Assembly (NCBI GenBank): GCA_918797485.1 | Contig: CAKKNE010000006.1 | Location: 1,054,001-1,118,000, forward strand | DNA: 64,000 nt | DNA from: Pelagomonas calceolata | Taxonomy: Eukaryota | Reading direction: 5' to 3' | Part shown: positions 25,269 through 64,000 of the stretch, piece by piece | Layout: the number at the start of each line of letters is the position of its first letter | How positions within the stretch are numbered: the stretch's first letter is position 1 | Translations under genes and position numbers: made by a program | Notes under the pieces: model-generated | Database searches by the model: none | Seen by the model: the letters and a program-made list of their open reading frames with translations, nothing else | Told to the model about the DNA's origin: nothing

Positions 25269-27657
25269 TCAGGCGTCGCGTTTGGCCCTTTTCGCCGCGC
25301 GTTCAGCGCGGGTCGCCCACTGGCCCGTCGACGCAGACGAGGCGCGGCCGCGTTTCTTCCCGTTCGCGACGCGGCCGTCTCCCGGAGGCTCGGCGAAGCC
25401 CTCGGCACGGAGCCGGTCGCCCAGCATCCGCTCGAGGTCCAGCGCGTCGACACGCGCCGCGATCGCGTCGCAGACGACGTCGTCCAGGACGCCGTCCCGC
25501 TCGCGCAGCTTCACGAGTTCGCGTCGAACCTCCGTCGACCGAATCTTCGACAGCTCGCGCGCCAGCGTCTGCGAGACGACCCAGCGCACGCGGCACTGCT
25601 CGATCGTCTCTCTGAGAACGACCCGAATCGTGGGACCGCCGCCGGCCGCGGGGCCGCCGCCGGCCGCCTGCCGCATCATCTCTTCTAACACGTCCGGCGG
25701 CGGCGGCACGGCGAGGCACACGGCGCGCGTCGGGTAGTTGAGCGCCTCGCGGCCGCGCGCCATCTGCGCGATGTCGGCTACGAGCGCCGCCACGTGCACA
25801 TCGCTGTAGGTTGCTTCCAGCCTCGACCCGTCGCCGAGGTACACCCGCACCCGAAACGTATCGTAGCGACCCGCCACGCACGCGAACTCGGTCCCGTACC
25901 TCGCGAAGTTGCCGCCGCGGCCCGAGGCCTCGTGGGCCGCCCGTTTCTCGGCCCACCGGGCCTCCGTGGCCGCGCGGCGCCGCGCGATGCCCGCCCACCA
26001 CGCGCTGTCCCGGTCCTCGACCTGTGTGGAAATCAAACTTCGGACGCCCCACGGAACCTAACTCACTGGTTGATTTCCACACATACCTCGACCATGCGCC
26101 GGAACACGCCGCCCGGCGCCCAGCCCTCCTCGAGCAGCTTCTCGAGCGCCTCCCGCATCGCCCCGTCCTCCAGCGACTTGCGGAAGACGCCGTCCGGGTC
26201 CGCCCAGAGCTTCTTCATAAACCGCGACCTGTGTGGAAATCAAATTTCAGGCGTCCCACGCCATCGACACGACGTCGTCCCACGCCATCGACACGACGTC
26301 GTCCCACGCCATCGACACGACGTAGTCCCACGCCATCGACGCGACGTCGCCCCGTGACTGCGTCTTCTCAATGGCGTGGAGGTTTACGATGGTCTCCACA
26401 ATAATTCTCAGTATCACCGTCTGAATGGCCTCAAAATCGGAAAAGAAACCACCCACGACCTCCTCTCCTAGAGACGACGCGCGTCGATGGCGTGAAGGCG
26501 CCGCAGCACCGCGGGCAACTCCTGGTTGATGATTTCCACGCAGACCGCTACGTCTCCTCCCTCGCCTCGGCGATAACGTCGGCGTCGTTGGCGTACATGC
26601 GGCGCCAGTAATTGATCTCGCCGCCGGCGCCCAGCACCGTCATCCCCAGGTGCTTCGCGATGGCCGTGAGGCAGCGGTCCGAGGCCACGATGTGCTTCTC
26701 GAAGTCGAGGTGGCCCCAGCAACCCCGGTAAATCAAAGTCCCCGCCATGGGATGGATGTGGCGGCCGAGGTTGTTCACGGCGTCGCCGAACACCGCCTCC
26801 ATCGCAGCGCACGCGTCCTCGCCCCACGTCGCCACGGCCGGCTTCTCGCCGTGGGCCAGCTCGTAGATCAAGAACGTCACGGCGATGGCTTCGAGGTGGA
26901 CCTCCATGAGCGCGTCGGCCCGCTCGGCGCCGCCGCACGCCCGGCGGAACTCGGTCGAGGGCGTGATCGAGTTGTCGTTGTCGTCCTTCTTCCTCATCAA
27001 GATCGGGTAGATGTCCTGGACGAAGCCCCCATTCTTCTCCGCGTCGCCCTTCGCGATCTCGTCGTGCTTCTCCGTGCTCTTGATGAAGGAGTTCGGGCCG
27101 ATGACCTTGCCCACGCACACGTTCGCCTTGTTGGTCTTGCCGTCCCGCAGGTGGTCGTCGGTGTCGGGGTCGAAGCACATGATGTGCGCGATCGCCTCGT
27201 TCAGCAGCTCCGCGAGGGAGTTGACGTCCGACTGCGACGGCTCCAGGCCGTATTTCTTGGCCAGATCGGCGACCTTCTCCCGTAGCTCCTGGAGGCGCTT
27301 CCATAACGCCTCGATGACCTCGGGCGGCGCGTGGACGCGGAAGGTCTCGCCGCCGGTCTCGAGCACGAAGGGCGGTTCCGTCGAAGCGTCGCCCTCGACG
27401 CCGTCGCCGTCCTTGCGGAAGACGCTGCTCAGGTCAAATTCTTCTAAGTTAATGCCGGCGCGCTTCAACGCCTCGAGCTTCTCGGCGCTGTCGCCGACGC
27501 GGCTCCACTGGGCGAGTTTGCGCTTCCATAGCTGCTCCCGCAGGCGCGCGCGGGCCTCGCCGCCCCGCAGGCCGGCGCCACTTTGATAGAGTTCGCTCTG
27601 CTGCGTCGTTTCAACCTGAGCGCGGCGGCGCTTGGCCGTGCGGTTGGCTCTACCCAT
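25269..27657 (-). CDS. Hypothetical protein (~664 aa); exons 27657-26552, 26228-26093, 26021-25269
   Basis: Removing two TIR/TSD elements fuses three pieces into one continuous frame (..AREETSRFMKKLWADPDG..FRRMVEDRDSAWWAG..). Confidence 0.72.
26022..26092 (-). mobile_element. TIR-family introner (63-bp element plus TSD copy)
   Basis: TIR (A)TGTGTGGAAATCAA / TTGATTTCCACACAG. TSD GTCGAGGT / GTCGAGGA. Confidence 0.88.
26229..26551 (-). mobile_element. TIR-family introner (315-bp element plus TSD copy)
   Basis: TIR CTGCGTGGAAATCA / TGATTTCCACACAG. TSD GTAGCGGT / GTCGCGGT. Contains an internal tandem repeat. Confidence 0.9.
26255..26347. repeat. Short tandem repeat, ~4 copies of CCCACGCCATCGAC(A/G)CGACGT(CGT), inside an introner
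   Basis: Directly visible in the sequence. Confidence 0.9.
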
Positions 27658-53883: not shown

Positions 53884-54430
53884 GGGTAATGCTGCTTGTG
53901 ATGGTGCGGCTGCGAGCAAGCTGTCCAGTGGCTGCCCAGGGTGAGACGCACGTACGTGTTGCGCCCCGCGCAGTGCTGATCGATGGCACTACACTCGAGT
54001 CGGAGTTGGGCGCCTAGGAGCCGAGAGGGCTGCCCACAACAAGCCGGCACACACCTTTGGCAGGGACCCCTAGTGGGTTTCTCACGGCGCGCCCCGCACG
54101 CTGTGGCGGGCTTTGCGACCTAGATCGCACCCCATCAGTCCCCGTCGGACGCGTCGCGCGACGCAGCTGGCCGGCGTGGCAACCGCGCGCGGCTCCACCA
54201 TCGGTCCAGCCTGAACAGAGGAGCGGTCGCACCCGTGCGACCGCTCCGCATTCGCCCACCAGCGGACGCCCCGCCGCGCGTGACCACATTCCGATGGACG
54301 AAATCGCTCCCCGTGGGCAGCGCCTTCCGCTTTCATCGCCTGTTAGGCAAAAGCAGCAACGAACAGCTGCCAAAGCGCTGCCCCCGCCGACCCCCAGCCA
54401 ACGCTTACCCCGTGCACACGTCGCTGCTCA

Positions 54431-54549
54431 GTGCGTAACTCAAATGTCGCTGCGCGCGTCGCCGCCATTGCTGAATCCTGGCATCCACGCCACCGACGCG
54501 ACGCCAGCGCGATGGCGTGCACCCGACTCACTGGTTGATTTGCGCGCAG
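54431..54549 (+). mobile_element. Probable 5'-UTR introner-like intron of the AMT gene
   Basis: GTGCGT donor. The 3' end CACCCGACTCACTGGTTGATTTGCGCGCAG matches the TIR-family subterminal region. Confidence 0.62.
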
Positions 54550-54564
54550 GTGCTCCTCTCGATC

Positions 54565-56098
54565 ATGGCCGAGACAATCACTGCGGACGCCGTCGCCGAC
54601 GCCGTCGCGCCGGGCGGCATTGATGCTGGTCATACGGCGTGGATCCTCATGTCCTGCGCCCTCGTGAACTTCATGACGCCGGGCCTGGCCTTCTTCTACG
54701 GCGGCCTCGTCCGGCGCAACCACGTGCTCTCGATCATCATCCAGAATTACGTTTGCATGGGAATCATCACGCTGATCTGGGTCGTCTGGGGCTTCTCGCT
54801 CTGCTTCGGCGCGTCCGGCTGGTTCTACGGCGACCCGGGCGACTTCGTGATGCTCAACCGCGTCTCCGGCGCGCCGCTGCCGCACGAGGGCCGCGGCAAG
54901 ATGGGCGAGGCCTACGTCGAGGGCATCCCGGGCTTGGTCTTCGCCGCGTATCAAGGGATGTTCGCCGTGATTACGCCGGCGCTGATGACTGGCGCTTTTG
55001 CCGAAAGGATTAAGTTCGCGCCGTTTCTCGTGTTCGTGGTGCTCTGGGTGCACCTCGTGTACTTTCCCTGGTGCCACTGGGTCTGGGGCCCGAACGGCTG
55101 GCTGATGACCTGGGGCGTCTGCGACTTTGCTGGAGGTTTAGTTGTGCACGTGACGGCTGGGTTCTCGGCTCTGGCTACGGTCATGGCCCTGCCGTCGAGA
55201 GAAAAGCTCGAGGGCGCCCCGGTCGACACGACGCCGCACAATGTTCCGTATGTAGCTTTAGGGACGGCCTTGCTCTGGTTCGGCTGGTTCGGCTTCAACG
55301 GCGGGAGCGCCCTCGGCTCGGACAGTGTTGCCGCATATGCTTTGATCAACACGGAGATTTCTGCCAGTGTAGCTCTATTGGTCTGGATGTTCATCGAGTG
55401 GAAGCTCGAGGGAAAACCGAGTTTGGTAGGCGTCTGCGTCGGCGCCATCGCCGGCCTCGCCACGATCACGCCGGCGGCGGGCTTCGTCAAGCCGTGGGCG
55501 GCGGTCGTGATTGGCACCGCCTCGGCCATCTTCTGCTACGCCTGCGTTTATGGATTGACGAAGATGGGCTACGACGACGCGTTAGATGTGTGGGGCGTCC
55601 ACGGCATGGGCGGCTTCCTCGGGACGTGTCTGTTGGGCGTGCTGGCGGAACACGACGTGAACGGGGTGTCCGGCGCGATCTCGGCGTCCCGCGGTGCTGC
55701 GGCGCCTTCACGCCGTCGACGCGACTCGTCTCCATCTCACAATGAAGTGGGTGGTTCGTTTTTCGAATTTGAGGCCGTTCGGACCGCGGCGAGTGACCGC
55801 GATGCTCCGCGCAGGCGACTGGAATCAGTTCAAGAAGCAACTCGCGGCGGCGTTGCTTTGTGCTATTTACAGTTTCGTCGTGGCCTTCGCGCTCATGAAG
55901 GGTTTGATGCTGGTGATGGACGTCGTCCCGGACGTGGAAATGGTGCGGTCGGGCCTCGACTACTCGATGCACGGCATGCTCGCGCACAATTCTGATGATG
56001 ACGACGCGAAGCCGAAGAAGAGCGCCGCGCGGGGCCCCGAGAAGACGGAGGAGATGGACGGTAGTGGTGCGAAGGTCGGCATCCGCCTCGACCCCTGA
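54565..56098 (+). CDS. Ammonium transporter (Amt/Mep, AMT2/AmtB-like); exons 54565-55672, 55815-56098
   Basis: MTPGLAFFYGG, FAVITPAL.TGA.AER, DFAGG.VVH, LLWFGWFGFNGGS and DDALDVWGVHG.GG (twin His). Confidence 0.95.
55673..55814 (+). mobile_element. Introner-like GC-AG intron (142 bp)
   Basis: GCGCGATCTCGGCGTCC...GCTCCGCGCAG. Restores the final TM helix. Confidence 0.85.
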
Positions 56099-56217
56099 GT
56101 TGTGAGGTCGTGAGCCGCCCAATTCGTCGCAAGCCCCCCTCCCTACCCGCGGCTCCCTCACAAGTGAACATAACACCGTTGTCTGCACTACTCGATGACG
56201 AGACAATAATGTTACGG

Positions 56218-56733
56218 CTAGTGGCGCGACACGAGCATGCGCCCTCGCTGTGATACGCTCGACAGGCCGACGGTCCGGCTCAGGACCACTGAGCCGGACT
56301 TGGCCAGCGGCGACGTGTAGGAGCCGGGCCCGAGGTGGTGGCCGTCGAAGCCCCACTCCATGGGCGCCGATGCGACGTAGTTGAGGCCGTTCGGGTCCAG
56401 GCGCGACGACCGTCCGGACGACCGAGCCCACGAACTTTGTGGTCTTTGCAATTGACTTGGAGAGAAGAATTCAAACCCAGACGGAATGTCGTAGCACGAG
56501 GGCACGTCGACGAATTCGAGGGAAGGCTCCGAGAGCTTCCGCCGCGTCTTCGAGATGACGCTGCCCCCCGTGAGGAACGGCTTCTTGGACCGGCGCGAGT
56601 ACCTGACCGGCAGGTGCGCCCGCGCGTAGTGGTGGATGTCGCTCCCGTTCTGGAGGAGCGAGTGGTCCTTGAGGGCCGGCGACGGCAGCGCGTGGACGTA
56701 GCCGCCCAATTGGCTGCTCTGCATGAGGGACAT
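56218..56733 (-). CDS. Hypothetical protein with GPGSY motif
   Basis: ATG ORF with host-like codons. Confidence 0.5.
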   Translation of the reverse strand: MSLMQSSQLGGYVHALPSPALKDHSLLQNGSDIHHYARAHLPVRYSRRSKKPFLTGGSVISKTRRKLSEPSLEFVDVPSCYDIPSGFEFFSPSQLQRPQSSWARSSGRSSRLDPNGLNYVASAPMEWGFDGHHLGPGSYTSPLAKSGSVVLSRTVGLSSVSQRGRMLVSRH

Positions 56734-57290
56734 GCCGGCGCTGCCGCCGGGAGCGCTCCCTCGTGGGGTGCGGGGTCGGGCGGCGCCCGGACGCGCTGCG
56801 GCGGTGGCGTCGGTGCAGCCCCGCGGTCTCCTCGCGCGCGCGAGGGCAGCCCTGGCGCGTCCCGGGAGAGCGTGGGTTACTCTTTCCCTCAATTTCTGTT
56901 GATATTCGAACCCTCGGCGAGGAGCTCTCCGGCCCGACGCGCCGGCGGAGCGGTCGCCGCGACGGATGCTGCTTGCTAGTGTGTCTTACAGGACGCTAGC
57001 ACACAGCCTCCGCAGCCAAGCCAATTTCATAGCCTGTGTGCGGCCGGTCAGGCTCGGAGCATCTGTTTTAGATTGCTTTTGTTGAGACAGACCGCCCGCG
57101 ACCGCGTTGGGACGCGCGAAACCGGGCCCGGAGCGCCCACAGCCCTGCCGACCGGCAGCGTCTCTTTTGGACGCTGCCGGCGGGGCGCCGCGGAGCCGTA
57201 TTGGTCCGGCGCCGCCGCCGCTGCAGGGCCGCGCGCGAGCCCGCTCACTCAAGACAAGGACCGCGCAGAGCGTCGCGATAAAACGGGACC

Positions 57291-60200
57291 ATGGCCTCGT
57301 ACCTCTACAATTCCTTAAAGAGAATTGTCGTCGGAGAAGAGGACGACGACCCGTCCTGTCTGAAGGACCCCGTGACCATGGCGCTGTACGAAGATCCTTT
57401 GAAGGGTCTAGGTCTCAAACAAACCGCACAACCGTGGGACACGAGAGACGCGCTGCGGACGAACTGCTTGAATTTAGTAGCGCAATCGTCTCTGAACCGA
57501 CGAGATAAACCTCTACTACCGCATAAATACGCGCTCATCGCCTACCACCTCGCGGCGAAAACCATCAAGGTGACGAAGGCGCAGGACCTCAAAAGGCTCC
57601 TGGACGAGGAACCGCACTTGTTCTCTGGTGCGGTCCCGCGTCGCGCGCAGGTGCCTTCACGCCATCGAGCCGCGTCGTCTCCAGGAGAGAAGGCGTCGGG
57701 CGGTCTTTTTCGCGACTTTGAGCCGTTTCGGACCGCGTCGCGACGCCGTCGTTCCGCGCAGGCCGGCCCACGGACATGCTGCAGATTCTGAGGCCGGTCC
57801 ACTGCGCCGGCGTGCCCACGAATAGTCGTGTCCGAGCGGGCGCGATGTTGCACGTCATCTACGATGATTACGTCCTGTGCCAGGACCCGGGCGACGCGCT
57901 GCCGCACCAGCAGTACGTCTGCAAGGTGTCCTATTGTGGAAGACAACATTTCGTGAGGAGACGGTTCTCGGAGTTTAAATTACTACACGATAAATTACAA
58001 AAAGAATTACTTGTGGTGCCGGGCTTTCCGAGTGCTGATGTGTCCTACAAAGTTGGCCTTGGCGATTATTCAGCGAGAGGCAAGGCTCTCTGTAGATACG
58101 CTTGTAGAGTGCACGCCTCATTGGGCGCGCGGGGCATGTTCTCGCCGCGCTTGCTCGCGTTCCTGGAGATCGACGCGGCTCGTGTTCATATCGAGGAGGA
58201 CGGTGCGGTCTCGGCGTCCCGCGGTGCCTTCACGCCATCGACGCGCGTCGTCTCCAGGAATGCTGGAAGTGGGTGGTCTCTGGTCCAAATTTGAGCCGTT
58301 TCAGACCGCGTCGAGGGACCACGATGCTCACGCAGTCGTTCCGCACAGGTCGCGTCTCGAAGATGCTCGACTCCACGTCCCAGGTCTCGGGGAGCGTCTG
58401 GCACATGGTCGACGAGTTCTGGCTGAAAAAGTGGCGCAAGTTCGTGCTAGGGCGGGCGGCGCGACGTTATGAGCCGCCGGGGCCGATTTCCAACGAACAC
58501 CTCCTCGAGAGTGTGGCGCGCACGCGCTATCTACTGACCGAATCGCTCACGGTGGAGGAAAGGAAGAAGCGCCAGAAGGAGCTCGACGAGCGCGCGACGA
58601 CCGTCCCACCACCAATACGTAGAGAAGCTCGGTTAGAATTCGACCAGCGGAGTGCCGCGGTGGACAAGTACCAGACGCCATTGGACGAGGATAGCAAGGA
58701 GGAACCCGTACAACCGGAGCCCGCGACGATAGGAAAACATTATCGGGCGATCAACTACGACCTGTGGACGTACTGGCGGATGGTGCACGGCGGCGGTGCC
58801 GAGTCAGCGTCTTCACGCCATCTTCATGAATCGTCTCCACGAGAGAATGGTTTCTTTTTCGAATTTGGGGCCGTTCGGACCGCGTCGCGACGTGGTCGCC
58901 GCGGCGCCGTCCCGAGGATCACACGAGCGTCGTCCCCGCGCAGGCCCCTGCATCTCGCGCAAGACGAAGGAAATCACCTCTCCGCCGGCCTGCGGCCCCG
59001 GCCAGGAGGCCGTGTCTCGCTTGCAACGCTTCGGGAGGATGTGCATCTCCAAACAGCGACGCATCGCGAAGTTCTGGAATCATTTATCAGGTACCGCTGC
59101 TGGAGTGAGGGAGGTCTTAGCTGATGCTGCTGAGAGGCGTATAAGAGATAGAGTGGATAGGACCCTGGGCGCGGCGCGGAACAAGCGCACGGAAGGGAGA
59201 TTGAGGTTAGCGGCTCGCTACACGCAGCGCATGTGGCGGTCGAAGCGCGCGTACGCGTTCAACGACGAGAACGTAAAAGTGATGAAGCACGCGCAGGAGA
59301 TCTTCGCGCGGGCCGACGGGGAGGTCGAGCACGCGTCGGCGGGCGCGCCCTTCGTCGTCGAGGAGGGGGAGAGGATCGTGCAGGTCGGCGCGACGGAGCA
59401 GTACGAGATCAAGTTTACCGAGTCGGATGGTCCTTCCTTGCCCGTCGTGTTCAAGCGCCATTCCTGTTCGGAGCTGACGTATGTCCACTCCGTCGGGAAG
59501 GACATGGCGATGAAGAAGGGGCGGGATCAATTGGTGCGGACGCGGCGTCCGTTGGTCTTCTCGCGCGTCGCGTCGATGGCGTCGGGGGGAGAGCAGGCCG
59601 ATTCGGGCCGCCGGTCGCCGCGATGGCGTCGACGCCGTCTTCATGATCACGCGAGGGGTCCACGCGTCGCGCGAGAGCGGGTCGCGGCGATGGCGTCTCG
59701 CGAGCGTCGTGTCGCGCCTCGCAGGTGCCCGACTCCGTGTTATTGGTGGTCCAGTCCTACCCCGTGTCGTCGTTGGCGCACGACCAGGTCATGCACCGGT
59801 TACGTTCGGCAAAATGGCCCGTCACGCTTAGATTTTCGAGACCACTCACCGATAGCGACGTGACACCCCTCGCGCGATGCTTGCAGCTGGAACAGCAGGG
59901 CGAACTGCCCGACGACCTGAAGCTGCAGATGCTCAAGCGGCTCCTCAGCAAGGGCGTCGCGGTCAGGAAACACGGCTCCAGGAAGCAGGCGTACGACACG
60001 GTCGTGTACCTCAACGAGACGATGCTCTTCTGGCGGGTGCGATCTCGGCGTTTTGAAGTGTTGCGGTGCCTTCACGCCATCGACGCGACTCGTGTCCATC
60101 TCACGAGGCCGTTCGGACCGCTTTGACGGAAATGCTCCGCGCAGGTCCGCGACGCCCTTAAGCAGCAGGCCAATTCCAAGGTGCGCAAGAAGAAGAAGAC

Positions 60201-60763
60201 CGAGGACGTCCAGGAGGAGGTGCGCGGTTTGAGTCTCAAACTGTGTGGAAATCAACCAGTGCGTCGGGTGCACCCGACAATTCTTCACTAAGTCATTTCT
60301 CGGCGATGACGTGGCCGTCCTGGCAAGGTCGAGCGGTGAGGGACCGGCATCGCCACGCCATCGAGCAGGCGTCGCGTCGATGGCGTGGAGGTCGACGCGA
60401 CGATTCAGCACGAACGCGCCGTAAAATTTTGATTTCCACACAGGTCTCAAATATGATCTCACTAAGGGTGTCGGTTTGTACGATCTGCGGTACGTGCGCG
60501 TGGGCAAGATCTCGTCGTCGTTCAAGCGCTATGCGTCGAAGAAGGCGCCTCAGGACCGGTGTTTGTCGCTATTTTGTGCGGGTTCCAAGACGATAGATCT
60601 GGAGGTGCTCGGTGACGCGAAGGAACGAGATGCCTTCGCGTGGGCCTTCGACAAGATCATTGGCGAAGCGCGGGCGACGCGCATCTTCGTGGACAAGGCC
60701 GGCGCGCCGGTCGCGCGGTCCGAGCCGAAGAAGCGGCTACGGATGATCCTGGGGGCGCACTAA
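57291..60763 (+). CDS. Multidomain protein: PX + DUSP-like + IQ-like + PDZ-like + PH; 7 exons (57291-57627, 57762-58202, 58349-58795, 58944-59533, 59725-60036, 60145-60232, 60444-60763), ~844 aa
   Basis: PX VRRRFSEFKLLHDKL; DUSP WHMVD..WLKKW..PPGPISN..HGGGPCISR; IQ-like ARYTQRMWR; PDZ-like HDQVMHRLRSAKWPVTLRF; PLC-type PH RCLSL..KTIDLE. Confidence 0.82.
57628..57761 (+). mobile_element. Introner-like intron (134 bp)
   Basis: GTGCGG...GGTGCCTTCACGCCATCGA...TTCCGCGCAG. Confidence 0.82.
58203..58348 (+). mobile_element. Introner-like intron (146 bp)
   Basis: GTGCGGTCTCGGCGTCC...TTCCGCACAG. Confidence 0.85.
58796..58943 (+). mobile_element. Introner-like intron (148 bp)
   Basis: GTGCCGAGTCAGCGTC...CCCGCGCAG. 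Restores HGG|GPC. Confidence 0.85.
59534..59724 (+). mobile_element. Introner-like intron (191 bp)
   Basis: GTGCGGACGCGGCGTCC, three copies of CGATGGCGTC, ends CCTCGCAG. Confidence 0.82.
60037..60144 (+). mobile_element. Introner-like intron (108 bp)
   Basis: GTGCGATCTCGGCGTTTTGAAGTGTTGCGGTGCCTTCAC...GCTCCGCGCAG. Confidence 0.88.
60233..60443 (+). mobile_element. Intact TIR-family introner (element 60241-60443, 203 bp)
   Basis: Perfect 15-bp TIR and perfect 8-bp TSD GTCTCAAA (60233-60240 / 60444-60451). Confidence 0.95.
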
Positions 60764-60898
60764 TCGTTTTACTGAATACCTAGTATACCGTGACGGCGTG
60801 ACCTACTAGTATATACATATATATACGGTACTACTACCTACTAGTATACCTTACAACATACATACCTTCGCCTTGCGCCCCCGGCTTTCCAGAGCGAA

Positions 60899-61564
60899 CT
60901 AGGGTATGGGGTAATGAACTCGCGGCCACGTCCGGCAGCCGTCGTCCGGCGGGCCGAGCTCCGAGAGCTCGACGTCGCGCTCGAACGCCTCGCCCATCCA
61001 GCCGCGGCGCGCGGCCCGTCGGCGGACCTCCTCCTCGTCGACGCCCAGGCGCGCCGCCGTATCCCGTATTAATGCGACGCGGCCCTGGATCCGCCGGCGA
61101 GGAAGTGTTGAATGGTCGGGGTCGTAGTCTCCGGTAATCGTGGCCAGGTTCCAGGCGTTCCAGTCGCATCGGTCCGCGAGCTGCGTCAGTTTTGACGCCG
61201 TTGATGGTAGGGCGGTCTCTTCCTGGTAGACGGCCTCCAGCGACTCTCGCGTCACTCCTTCCTCGTCTTCCGTATCCGGTAGCAGGGCGTCCGCCACGGC
61301 GGCGCGCAGTTCATCGTCCGCTGCTGCTGCCGCGTCGCGCGTCAAGTCGAAGCATACGACGTTAAACGCGACGACGAAGAGGAGCAGGCCCCAAACATAC
61401 ACGTTTTCACGGCTCGGTGCGCCCTCGGGGCTGCTGCCCGATGATCCTAAGGAGCTAAGCTTCTTGCCCCACCTGTGAGCATCGGTGCTTACTGGGCTTG
61501 CGCGAGCCGCGGCGGCGGCGGCAGCCACGATGGTGCACGCCGCCGAGAGCATGCATCGTCGCAT
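60899..61564 (-). CDS. Hypothetical membrane protein
   Basis: Signal-like N-terminus and TM segment VYVWGLLLFVVAFNVVCF. Confidence 0.55.
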   Translation of the reverse strand: MRRCMLSAACTIVAAAAAAARASPVSTDAHRWGKKLSSLGSSGSSPEGAPSRENVYVWGLLLFVVAFNVVCFDLTRDAAAAADDELRAAVADALLPDTEDEEGVTRESLEAVYQEETALPSTASKLTQLADRCDWNAWNLATITGDYDPDHSTLPRRRIQGRVALIRDTAARLGVDEEEVRRRAARRGWMGEAFERDVELSELGPPDDGCRTWPRVHYPIP

Positions 61565-62020
61565 GGTTGCGGAGAGCCGGCAATTCCAATTCGAGCCTGG
61601 GGCAGCTCAGATGGGCAGCTCTGCCGGGCGCCGGGACGGGTTGGGCTCCCGGGCCCGCCGCGGAGCCGTCCCGCAACGCCTCTAAACGTCCTCAATCCCC
61701 CGAATTGCGCCCGCGCCAGACGTGCGGGTTCACGGCAACATCCCCCCCCAAAACCAAGCGCTGAGCGGCGGCACGGCGGACGCGCCCGTCTAGTCGCTTG
61801 CATCGCGCGTAGGGCTGCCCGCCGACGCCAGTCGACGCCATAAGACGGCAGCAACGCCGGGAGGGCTGCCGGAACGCTACCAATACTAGCTAGCTCGGCC
61901 GTCCGACGCCGTCGACGCCTCGACGCGGTGGAACAAAGCTGCCGCAGCGACACTACTAAGGTTTGCTGATAGAGCTAGCTAGGCCCCGCTCCGACGCCGT
62001 GTAAATAAACAGACGTCAAG

Positions 62021-64000
62021 ATGCCCGAGTTACCTGAAGGGACGATTAATGCGTTTATACAGAACAAGAACCTGGCCAAGTATGGCCTGCTCAAGGACAA
62101 CGAGGGCGGGTTTCTTGCGGAGAATTTCGTCGACTATCAGCTCATCGATAGGTGCGATCTCGGCGTCCTGCGGTGCTGCGGCGCCTTCACGCCATCGACG
62201 CGACTCGTGTCCATCTCACGATGCCGGGGGTGGTCTCTGGTCCAAATTTGGGCCGATTCGGACCGCGTCCATCATTCCTGGAGACGACGCGCGTCGACCG
62301 CCGCACGCCGCCGCGCGACCGCGACGCTCCGCGCAGGCACGAAACCCTCGAGGAAATAGTAGCGGTGGGATGGATGAGCGACTTCCACCCCTTCAACAAG
62401 GACCTCGTGGCGGACCCCTCGCCGAAGATTTTAGTTATTGTCGACCGAGAACAAACCTACGGCGACTTCTGGCGCGTTTGCTTGACCGCCGAGGCCCAAG
62501 AACGGGAGATGAAGGCCATTAATGCTGAGCAAGAAGAGGCGCGACTTCTGGCCGAGGCCATCGAGGCGGAGCGGCTGCGCGTCGAGGAGGAAGCTAGAAA
62601 GGCAGCGACGGCCGTGTACGACGACTCGCCTATTGTAGCGAAGGCCTACGCGTCGGAGACGAGGGATGAGACGTTCGAGGACGTCGCGGCGTTGGACGTC
62701 GTGCCCGAACGGCCGCTGATGCAGTTCCAGCTGTCGCGACCTGTGTGGAAATCAAAATTTTACGGCGCGTTCGTGCTGAATCGTCGCGTCAACCTCCACG
62801 CCATCGACGCGATGCCGGCTCGATGGCGTGGCGATGCCGGTTCCTCGCCGCTCGAGCGAGCCAGGATATCGGCCGACGCACTGGTTGATTTCAACACAGG
62901 TCGCGACCGGCCGACTCGATCGGCGAGCCTCGCGTGTTTGCCGACCTCTCGGCGGACAACGAGATGTTCACGGAATCGCGCTCGACGAAAAATCCTGATT
63001 TCGCCCTGGAACGACGGGAAATGTCCGTCTCCGTCCAGGCCTGCAAGGTCAAGAAAGATACGGGTTCGCAGACCTGGACGCGGCCCATCCAGGCCAGTAC
63101 GCAGTACCACCCTGTTGGAGACGCCTACCAGCTCCCACCACCTCCCCCAGAGTCGAAAAGAGAACGCCAGGCGTCCCGACAGAAGCTCGTGAACGGTAAA
63201 AAGGGCCAGGTCGAGGAGGACACTAGTCTGATGACCGAGGACCAGCTCAACGAAAGAAAGAAGGCTGCGGAGCGAGACAGGAGCTACGCGCACGTCGCCC
63301 GGTTCCTCGCCAAGACCTTTGGGCTGATGGAGAACGCGCTGGAACAGAACGAGACGGTCGACGTGTTCGGGGATCTTTTTAAGGGTGCTGACTCAGCGTC
63401 CGTTTTTGATGAATGAACTTCAAGGTCGCGTCGATGGCGTCGGCGCGACGCCACGCCACCGCGGCGCCGTCGACGGGGCCGTGTGAGAGTCCACGGGTCT
63501 CGTGAGCGTCGCGTCGCGACCGCGGCCCCGCGCAGGTACTGGGGCCGGCGCCGAAGACCTGGAAGCGTCCAAAGGTGCGCTCGGTGAATTGAAAGAATTA
63601 CGGACCTTCGCCGACATCAACAGGACGAAAGGAAAACACTTACACAGCTTGCAGTGGCACCCCGCTCGCAAGGGCGTCGTCGCCGTCGGCCCGCGCTCCA
63701 ACTTAACCTTCGAGGACCGTTTACCGTCGAGTGGCTTTTCGTCGTCGTCGCACGTCCTGTACTGGGACTTTGCTGATTTAATAACGCCGTTACTCGTGTT
63801 GGAGGCGCCTTATAGCGTGGAAGCCTTTGCGATTAACACAGAGCGGCCCCACCTCGTCTGTGGCGGCCTCGAGAACGGCCAGGTGCTCGTCTGGGACACG
63901 TCGGCATCCACACAAGCTATCGACGCGAAGCGACAGCGAGAGAAGCGGCGACTCGCGGGAGAAAGCACGAAGGACGACGAGGAAGCGGCTCTCTTTGATG
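62021..64000 (+). CDS. DNAI3: Axonemal dynein intermediate chain WDR63/IC140-like, 3' end outside window; exons 62021-62151, 62337-62732, 62900-63384, 63536->64000
   Basis: SDFHP, ILVIVDRE.TYG, STQYHP, ALEQNE.VDVF, LKE.RTFAD..LQWHP and GGLENGQVLVWD. Confidence 0.82.
62152..62336 (+). mobile_element. Introner-like intron (185 bp)
   Basis: GTGCGATCTCGGCGTCC...CGACGCTCCGCGCAG. Confidence 0.88.
62733..62899 (+). mobile_element. Intact TIR-family introner (element 62741-62899, 159 bp)
   Basis: TIR 14/15 and perfect TSD GTCGCGAC (62733-62740 / 62900-62907). Confidence 0.95.
63385..63535 (+). mobile_element. Introner-like intron (151 bp)
   Basis: GTGCTGACTCAGCGTC...GAACTTCAAGGTCGCGTCGATGGCGTCG...CCCGCGCAG. 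Confidence 0.88.

What the first reader, a model, noticed from the sequence alone, without database searches (positions are those of the whole stretch)
60233..62907. Same miniature TIR transposon inserted in opposite orientations makes a precise intron both times
Seen: elements 60241-60443 and 62741-62899 have TIRs CTGTGTGGAAATCAA/TTGATTTCCACACAG and perfect 8-bp TSDs (GTCTCAAA; GTCGCGAC). The second is nearly the reverse complement of the first, with a net ~44-bp internal deletion, yet both host genes are on +. The TIR ends in CAG in either orientation. Splicing from the GT of the first TSD copy to the TIR AG therefore restores the original coding sequence exactly (VRGL|SLKY; QL|SRP). Established: this is the introner mechanism described for Aureococcus (Huff, Zilberman and Roy 2016). 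Inference: this is a recently active non-autonomous family, and this particular TIR family may be uncatalogued.
Basis: partly seen in the sequence, partly recalled or inferred. Interest (0 to 1): 0.9.

Follow-up and report, generated by a model that had tools for sequence, protein, structure and literature searches.

The report
Alga's mini-transposon makes precise introns
Two copies of one small jumping DNA element sit in opposite directions inside two genes of the ocean alga Pelagomonas calceolata, and both are cut out of the RNA without changing the protein; this is a clean case of an intron-making trick already described for these algae.

Summary
Confirmed, but known. E1 (60241-60443, 203 bp, TIR 15/15) and E2 (62741-62899, 159 bp, TIR 14/15) have exact 8-bp target duplications and are inverted relative to each other. 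Stranded RNA reads splice both exactly as predicted: 60232->60444 in 229+210 reads, 62732->62900 in 37+19. The spliced genes equal P. calceolata proteins with 0 differences. The family is large. In 121 marine metagenome sites, 45 of 103 closed copies have exact 8-bp duplications, and all 45 offer a GT/GC donor on one strand (32% by chance). The donor lies on the coding strand in 58 of 59 sites, with orientations 32:27. An ~85%-identical ortholog lacks E2 and carries its own copy at a site empty here. The mechanism is published for Aureococcus. P. calceolata introners are also catalogued: 956 putative ~210-bp TIR introners, and 'fam2' (340 copies, 202 bp, co-opt 5'/carry 3', hAT). Identity with fam2 is likely but untested by sequence. 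No transposase was found, and current activity was not shown. The scan's earlier notes hold nothing similar.

The parts
60233..60443 (+). Intron 1 (211 nt, GT..AG, phase 1) = first TSD copy (60233-60240) + element E1
   Evidence: RNA joint 60232->60444: 229 and 210 reads, contig in X12
60241..60443 (+). E1, full-length 203-bp TIR element, end A first; 15-bp perfect TIRs at 60241-60255 and 60429-60443
   Evidence: 203 nt is the modal length in the family, 15 of 81 copies
60444..60451 (+). Second (exonic) TSD copy of E1
62733..62899 (+). Intron 2 (167 nt, GT..AG, phase 2) = first TSD copy (62733-62740) + element E2
   Evidence: RNA joint 62732->62900: 37 and 19 reads, contig in X12
62741..62899 (-). 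E2, 159-bp internally deleted copy, inverted relative to E1 (end B first); TIRs 14/15
62900..62907 (+). Second (exonic) TSD copy of E2, palindromic 8-mer; single copy and no element in ortholog L083
57291..60764 (+). Host gene 1, 7 coding exons, 844 aa, PX + DUSP domains
   Evidence: spliced product equals P0045 (P. calceolata, UniRef100_A0A7S4E9Y7) with 0 differences; Pfam
62021..64000 (+). Host gene 2 (runs off the window), 924-aa protein with weak WD40/beta-propeller matches (all below curated cut-offs)
   Evidence: first 492 aa equal P0073 with 0 differences; Pfam
26022..26084 (-). 63-bp deleted copy of the same family, TSD 7/8, in a minus-strand ORF; predicted GT..AG intron
   Evidence: removing this and the next copy gives one open frame; not tested on RNA
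26229..26543 (-). 315-bp copy with the same TIRs, internal tandem expansion, TSD 7/8; predicted GT..AG intron
   Evidence: not tested on RNA
54420..54549 (+). 130-nt spliced intron upstream of the ORF starting at 54565: decayed copy of the family (end B first)
   Evidence: RNA joint 54419->54550: 175 and 146 reads; similarity to E1

Best explanation
E1 and E2 are inverted copies of one short, non-coding element with terminal inverted repeats and 8-bp target duplications; both are spliced out of Pelagomonas calceolata mRNA exactly, and they were likely inserted by a cut-and-paste transposase encoded elsewhere (an 'introner'). Shown: the intron starts at the GT of the first duplicated copy and ends at the CAG of the terminal repeat, so the second copy restores the exon. 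Because both ends carry the same repeat, either orientation supplies an AG. Shown across the family: exact duplications carry GT/GC on the strand that codes, both orientations are about equally common, and orthologs differ in which sites are occupied. Inferred: insertion is not aimed at GT/GC, and insertions without a usable donor would be purged by selection. The TTGAT in the repeat may serve as branch point. The mobiliser is probably hAT-like (8-bp duplication, published Repbase hit).
For: Anatomy (shuffle control). RNA joints at both sites, at read counts like those of neighbouring introns: 229/210 vs 217/185, and 37/19 vs 22/33 and 48/60. Spliced products identical to database proteins. 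Exact flanking duplication of length 8 in 45 of 103 closed copies, versus 1 for length 7 and 0 for lengths 9-12. GY donor on one strand in 45 of 45 (background 0.32, p=7e-23). Donor on the coding strand in 58 of 59 confident sites (46 of 47 where only one strand offers it), orientations 32:27, phases 0/1/2 = 28/5/26. Terminal AG of end B kept in 31 of 31 copies where it is the predicted acceptor and 27 of 33 where it is not (Fisher p=0.025). Ortholog L083 has a single target and no element at the E2 site, and its own TIR copy where the window has a single target. Relatives' proteins read through the E1/E2 sites and contain translated element ends at other sites. Diverse loose ends at 60241 in RNA and DNA runs show many other genomic copies.
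Against: No autonomous copy or transposase was found: none of the 121 sites showed a long TIR-closed element, though 18 stayed open, mostly at contig or locus ends. No whole genome was held. The end-finding script favoured ends with matching 8-mers, which leans the TSD counts towards 8. 22 of 103 closed copies have >=3 TSD mismatches. RNA alone cannot place the cut within the 8-9 nt ambiguity; the GT..AG rule does. The terminal bases CTG differ from the (C/T)A(A/G) start recalled for typical hAT TIRs. Selection versus targeting was not separated, and the branch point was not tested.
Confidence: 0.95

Rival explanations
1. The transposase itself prefers targets that start with GT/GC (or end with AC/GC), so the donor bias is mechanistic rather than a result of selection. 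The splicing model is unchanged.
For: All 45 exact TSDs carry GY on one strand, with no exception even among the 17 of 76 tested sites that lacked a confident coding frame.
Against: The GY lies on the coding strand in 46 of 47 one-sided sites, and in both element orientations. A pure DNA-level preference would not know the coding strand. The genome is gene-dense, so few neutral sites were sampled.
Confidence: 0.2
2. The elements are MITEs that landed inside pre-existing introns, or old introns that were lost precisely in relatives.
For: Presence/absence between lineages alone cannot give a direction.
Against: Element plus one TSD copy is the whole intron. Exact 8-bp duplications flank 45 copies. 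Empty sites hold a single target in both directions. More distant homologs are also uninterrupted at the E1 site (P0008, 86%, on a 20.6-kb contig).
Confidence: 0.02
3. The copies spread through an RNA route (reverse splicing of the excised intron) rather than by DNA transposition.
For: The intron folds into a stable hairpin closed by the TIRs (z=-4.95), though TIRs give this by construction.
Against: Both orientations occur about equally. The unit shared between copies excludes the intron's first 8 nt, which match the local exon instead. Reverse splicing would copy the donor and keep the orientation.
Confidence: 0.02

Closest known systems
Aureococcus anophagefferens introner elements (Huff, Zilberman, Roy 2016; paper not held; seen only as described in 10.1101/2020.10.14.339549, PMC10228655, PMC7789003 and 10.1101/2022.06.06.494994)
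   Same: One splice site carried, the other recruited from the TSD. Introns are made in either orientation. [quoted passage not shown]
   Different: Different species. Sequence relation to the Aureococcus families was not tested, nor was nucleosome-linker targeting.
Pelagomonas calceolata putative IEs (Guerin et al., 10.1101/2021.10.25.465678 / PMC9481584)
   Same: Same species; intron length peak ~210 bp (E1 intron is 211 nt); GT and GC donors, AG acceptor, conserved TIR; 956 putative IEs.
   Different: In the passages read, that paper gives no TSD, orientation or cross-lineage analysis. Its logo (Fig. S3b) is a picture and was not seen.
P. calceolata introner fam2 (also fam3, fam39, fam1) in Dataset S2 of PMC12130899
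   Same: fam2: 340 introns, TIR DNA, hAT (Repbase hit hATv-2N1_EHux), TE 202 bp, TIR 13, 'co-opt 5' carry 3'', GT 281 / GC 42. Here: 203 bp, TIR 15, GT 49 / GC 10.
   Different: The table's automated TSD field for fam2 is NA, while an 8-bp TSD is shown here.
Polarella glacialis ILE classes 6, 8, 10 (10.1101/2020.10.14.339549)
   Same: 8-nt TSD, donor from the TSD, introns in either orientation.
   Different: Dinoflagellate; GH donors; orientation bias reported there, while here the ratio is about 1:1 (32:27).

Membership tests
Aureococcus-type TIR introner | Terminal inverted repeats at the element ends | tested here: met
   15/15 and 14/15; 103 of 121 metagenome sites close with the TIR within 450 nt
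Aureococcus-type TIR introner | Target-site duplication (8 bp), single target at empty sites | tested here: met
   45 of 103 exact 8-mers, 81 of 103 with <=2 mismatches; single targets at reciprocal empty sites
Aureococcus-type TIR introner | 5' splice site co-opted from the TSD, 3' site carried by the element | tested here: met
Aureococcus-type TIR introner | Exact removal that leaves the protein unchanged | tested here: met
   RNA joints; 0 differences from P0045 and P0073
Aureococcus-type TIR introner | Intron creation in either orientation | tested here: met
   E1 vs E2 by RNA; 32:27 by codon model
Aureococcus-type TIR introner | Multi-copy, non-autonomous | tested here: met
   54-262 bp copies at 121 sites; five copies in the window; many different flanks in DNA runs
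Aureococcus-type TIR introner | Insertion in nucleosome linkers | not testable with these tools
   needs MNase data
hAT superfamily MITE | 8-bp TSD and short TIRs | tested here: met
hAT superfamily MITE | Typical hAT terminal bases, (C/T)A(A/G) (recalled, from no call) | tested here: inconclusive
   the element starts CTG; P, Merlin and Mutator elements also make 8-9 bp TSDs (recalled)
hAT superfamily MITE | Cognate autonomous element with hAT transposase and the same TIRs | tested here: inconclusive
   none among 121 metagenome sites, mostly short contigs; no genome held
P. calceolata fam2 (PMC12130899) | Same species, ~202 bp, TIR, co-opt 5'/carry 3', GT>GC donors | tested here: met
P. calceolata fam2 (PMC12130899) | Sequence identity to the family consensus / Repbase hATv-2N1_EHux | not testable with these tools
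   TIR strings absent from the supplement text searched; no consensus seen, no Repbase on hand

The most novel reading that the evidence does not exclude
This family is still moving in wild Pelagomonas, so intron presence/absence segregates among ocean populations. At least seven different sites in just these two genes are occupied in one lineage and empty in others. Three subfamilies only 61-66% alike inside all keep a 203-bp length, which suggests a nucleosome-sized constraint. That would make one of the most abundant ocean eukaryotes a natural system for watching intron gain, with the selection on the TIR's AG measurable by orientation.
Probability: 0.35. Interest if true: 0.6.

Novelty: already known. 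Interest (0 to 1): 0.3.

Why it matters
As a mechanism it adds nothing to the published Aureococcus introner model, and TIR introners of this size are already listed for P. calceolata. If insertions prove polymorphic within the species, the family offers a direct way to measure rates of intron gain and selection on new introns in wild populations.

Tried and rejected
No whole genome was held, so no genome-wide count or transposase search was possible. Huff et al. 2016 was not held by PMC id or PubMed id. Viral contigs: the 15-bp TIR gave 53 single matches with no paired ends, the best alignments to E1 only 20-23 nt, and the 20-bp end-A pattern gave 0; treated as chance. Prokaryote genomes: 1 match, at the end of a 2.7-kb, 64% GC contig of a marine MAG, read as likely eukaryotic contamination, not horizontal transfer. 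Long autonomous copy: not seen; open loci with long tails were decayed short copies or unrelated sequence. A generic TSD+TIR scan with 2-7 bp TSDs drowned in GC-rich noise. An empty-site blast among loci found no spanning hit in 80 queries; the empty E2 site was found only by aligning L083 directly. DNA runs: no joined (empty) form among the 15 joints listed, 375 rows not shown. Contigs link the inside of E2 to its flank in X1 and X2; for E1 only 25-26 letters lie inside, below the tool's bridging threshold. Summed contig depth on E1 is roughly 800-2000 times the flanks, but the tool states this is no copy number. Paper searches for 'hATv' and for P. calceolata intron/MITE polymorphism listed nothing relevant in their top 20. 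Earlier scan findings: none by sequence; one unrelated note by words.
Full report
Observation. The two elements are at the stated coordinates. E1 (60241-60443, 203 bp) has perfect 15-bp TIRs and is flanked by GTCTCAAA twice. E2 (62741-62899, 159 bp) has 14/15 TIRs and is flanked by the palindrome GTCGCGAC twice. E2 aligns to the reverse complement of E1 (126 nt at 93.7%, 27 nt at 96.3%, net 44 nt shorter). The TSD+TIR configuration occurs 3 times in the window and 0 times in each of 30 resampled windows. Three more copies lie in the window: 26022-26084 and 26229-26543 (TSD 7/8, minus-strand ORF that opens when both are removed) and a decayed one at 54420-54549.

Organism and genes. The cluster of gene 1 holds CAH0378992.1 and UniRef100_A0A7S4E9Y7, both named Pelagomonas calceolata. 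Splicing the window at the RNA-supported junctions gives 844 aa identical to P0045 and 492 aa identical to the start of P0073. Gene 1 has PX and DUSP domains; gene 2 has weak WD40-type matches.

Splicing. I laid four of the 24 listed runs on 54000-64000: two raw stranded poly(A) runs of one sample, one contig run of another study and one metatranscriptome. Joint 60232->60444 (GT..AG) has 229 and 210 reads, and joint 62732->62900 has 37 and 19. Both also stand in X12 contigs; neither is listed for the metatranscriptome X15. Neighbouring introns have similar counts (217/185; 22/33 and 48/60), so these are the main junctions. The decayed copy is also spliced (175/146). Reads cannot place the cut within the 8-9 repeated letters, but only one placement gives G[TC]..AG: donor at the start of the first TSD copy, acceptor at the TIR's last AG. 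Reads from other copies pile on E1 on both strands, with 3735 and 3210 loose ends of low agreement at 60241.

Family. 120 loci were stored, with 122 matches at 121 distinct sites. 103 close with the TIR within 450 nt; 18 stay open, mostly at contig or locus ends. TSD mismatches are 0 in 45, 1 in 21, 2 in 15 and >=3 in 22. Exact duplications of length 8 number 45, against 1 for length 7 and 0 for 9-12; the end-finder slightly favours 8. All 45 exact TSDs start with GT/GC or end with AC/GC (19 start only, 18 end only, 8 both; background 0.32). A codon model trained on 1799 window codons was applied to the 76 sites with <=2 mismatches and 60-nt flanks. 59 gave a confident frame; in 58 the donor is on the coding strand (46 of 47 where only one strand has it). 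Orientations are 32:27, donors GT 49 / GC 10 at the second base, and phases 0/1/2 are 28/5/26. End B keeps its terminal AG in 31 of 31 copies where it is the predicted acceptor and 27 of 33 where it is not (p=0.025). Lengths run from 54 to 262 nt with a mode at 203 (15 of 81), and copies with decayed TSDs are shorter (median 144 vs 181, p=0.001). Of 24 near-full-length copies, 17 are 88-95% identical to E1, one 79%, and six (two further subfamilies) 61-66%, at 203-207 nt.

Presence and absence. Locus L083 (contig Ga0163179_10160436) is an ortholog of gene 2, 85% identical over window 62440-62741. It has no E2 and a single target, in which a synonymous Leu codon removes the GT. It carries its own 101-bp TIR copy near window 62438, where the window has a single target, and it lacks the window's intron 62152-62336. 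Database proteins called on DNA show the same pattern. P0004 (64-kb contig) reads through the E2 site and begins with a translated element at the L083 site. P0053/P0079 and P0051/P0024 probably share contigs (inferred from equal contig lengths, 16,597 and 5,578); they read through both sites while carrying an element elsewhere. P0009 (54-kb contig) lacks E1. Counting the window, at least seven distinct sites in the two genes are occupied in some lineage. Gene-2 identity on those contigs is 87-95%, so these are related lineages; polymorphism within the species is not shown. Four DNA runs showed no empty allele among the listed joints. E1 differs from its subfamily majority at 6 of 203 positions, and the closest pair of 11 copies differs at 9: young, but no sign of a burst now.

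Mechanism. Shown: structure, exact splicing in both orientations, donor on the coding strand, single targets at empty sites. Inferred: insertion by a trans-acting cut-and-paste transposase making an 8-nt staggered cut, and survival only of insertions whose target starts with GT/GC on the sense strand. Also inferred: possible use of the TIR's TTGAT as branch point, and a probable hAT mobiliser. No transposase was found.

What is known. Huff et al. 2016 could not be read. Passages of 10.1101/2020.10.14.339549 describe the A. anophagefferens pattern (one site carried, one recruited from the TSD) and liken 8-nt, either-orientation classes to it. A passage of PMC10228655 reports insertion in both orientations, and passages of PMC7789003 mention constant DRs and TIRs. 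Passages of Guerin et al. (preprint, journal, supplement) report a ~210-bp intron peak and 956 putative IEs with TIRs and GT/GC donors in P. calceolata; the logo is a picture and one supplement file had no text. Supplement rows of PMC12130899 list 11 P. calceolata families, fam2 being 340 introns, 202 bp, TIR, hAT, co-opt 5'/carry 3' (main-text passages). Supplement rows of PMC9860276 list Pelagomonas MAG families with TSD/TIR unresolved (file cut when stored; preprint passages). The TIR string was not found in the supplement text searched (two files of the latter not searched for it), so identity with fam2 is likely but untested. Unseen figures and consensus files bear on this.

Verdict. The mechanism is published and the species' introners are catalogued. 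Interest 0.3. The open, more interesting question is whether the family still segregates in wild populations.

Noticed in passing
window 55673-55814, 57628-57761, 58203-58348, 58796-58943, 59534-59724, 60037-60144, 62152-62336, 63385-63535: The eight other spliced introns in 54-64 kb look like a second introner family. All 8 have G before the donor and G after the acceptor, start G[TC]GC and end GCAG/ACAG, which fits a 2-bp GG duplication supplying half of each splice site ('co-opt both, TSD 2' families are listed for this species). At least one is absent in ortholog L083.
   Followed up: partly
whole window, e.g. 60073, 60373, 62188, 62797, 63427: A 15-nt motif (CACGCCATCGACGCG, <=2 mismatches) occurs 42 times on either strand and is shared by both intron classes. 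Its strand varies, so it is more likely a DNA-level or ancestral feature than a splicing signal.
   Followed up: no
window 60037-60764: The NCBI model CAH0378992.1 (738 aa) runs into intron 60037-60144 and stops, missing the last two exons. RNA joints and the transcript-derived P0045 support 844 aa.
   Followed up: yes
proteins P0024, P0027, P0030: Short deleted copies at the IVIV|DREQ site of gene 2 are stop-free and in frame, so gene callers read through them (27-38 extra residues). This is not evidence of intron retention.
   Followed up: partly
L083 (reverse strand, just after the GWM codons of gene 2): A 63-nt GT..AG intron absent from the window, with a partly matching 8-mer on both sides; possibly a decayed insertion.
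   Followed up: no
proteins P0008, P0059-P0062, P0068 (contigs 7-54 kb): A relative at ~86% identity encodes gene 1 as one uninterrupted ORF, suggesting all six introns of the window's gene 1 are lineage-specific gains.
   Followed up: partly
L061, L171, L062, L066, L142, L158: Two further subfamilies share the TIRs and end-A motif and keep 203-207 nt although only 61-66% like E1.
   Followed up: partly
window 54565-55950: 464-aa spliced ORF that looks like an ammonium transporter (label recalled from its sequence, from no call); its 5' leader holds the decayed element copy.
   Followed up: no
L174 (CAJWOS010000721.1): The element end sits at the tip of a 64% GC contig binned in a proteobacterial MAG; likely algal contamination.
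   Followed up: partly
window ~56980-57000: A short stretch with many loose ends and raised summed depth in DNA runs: another dispersed repeat between two genes.
   Followed up: no
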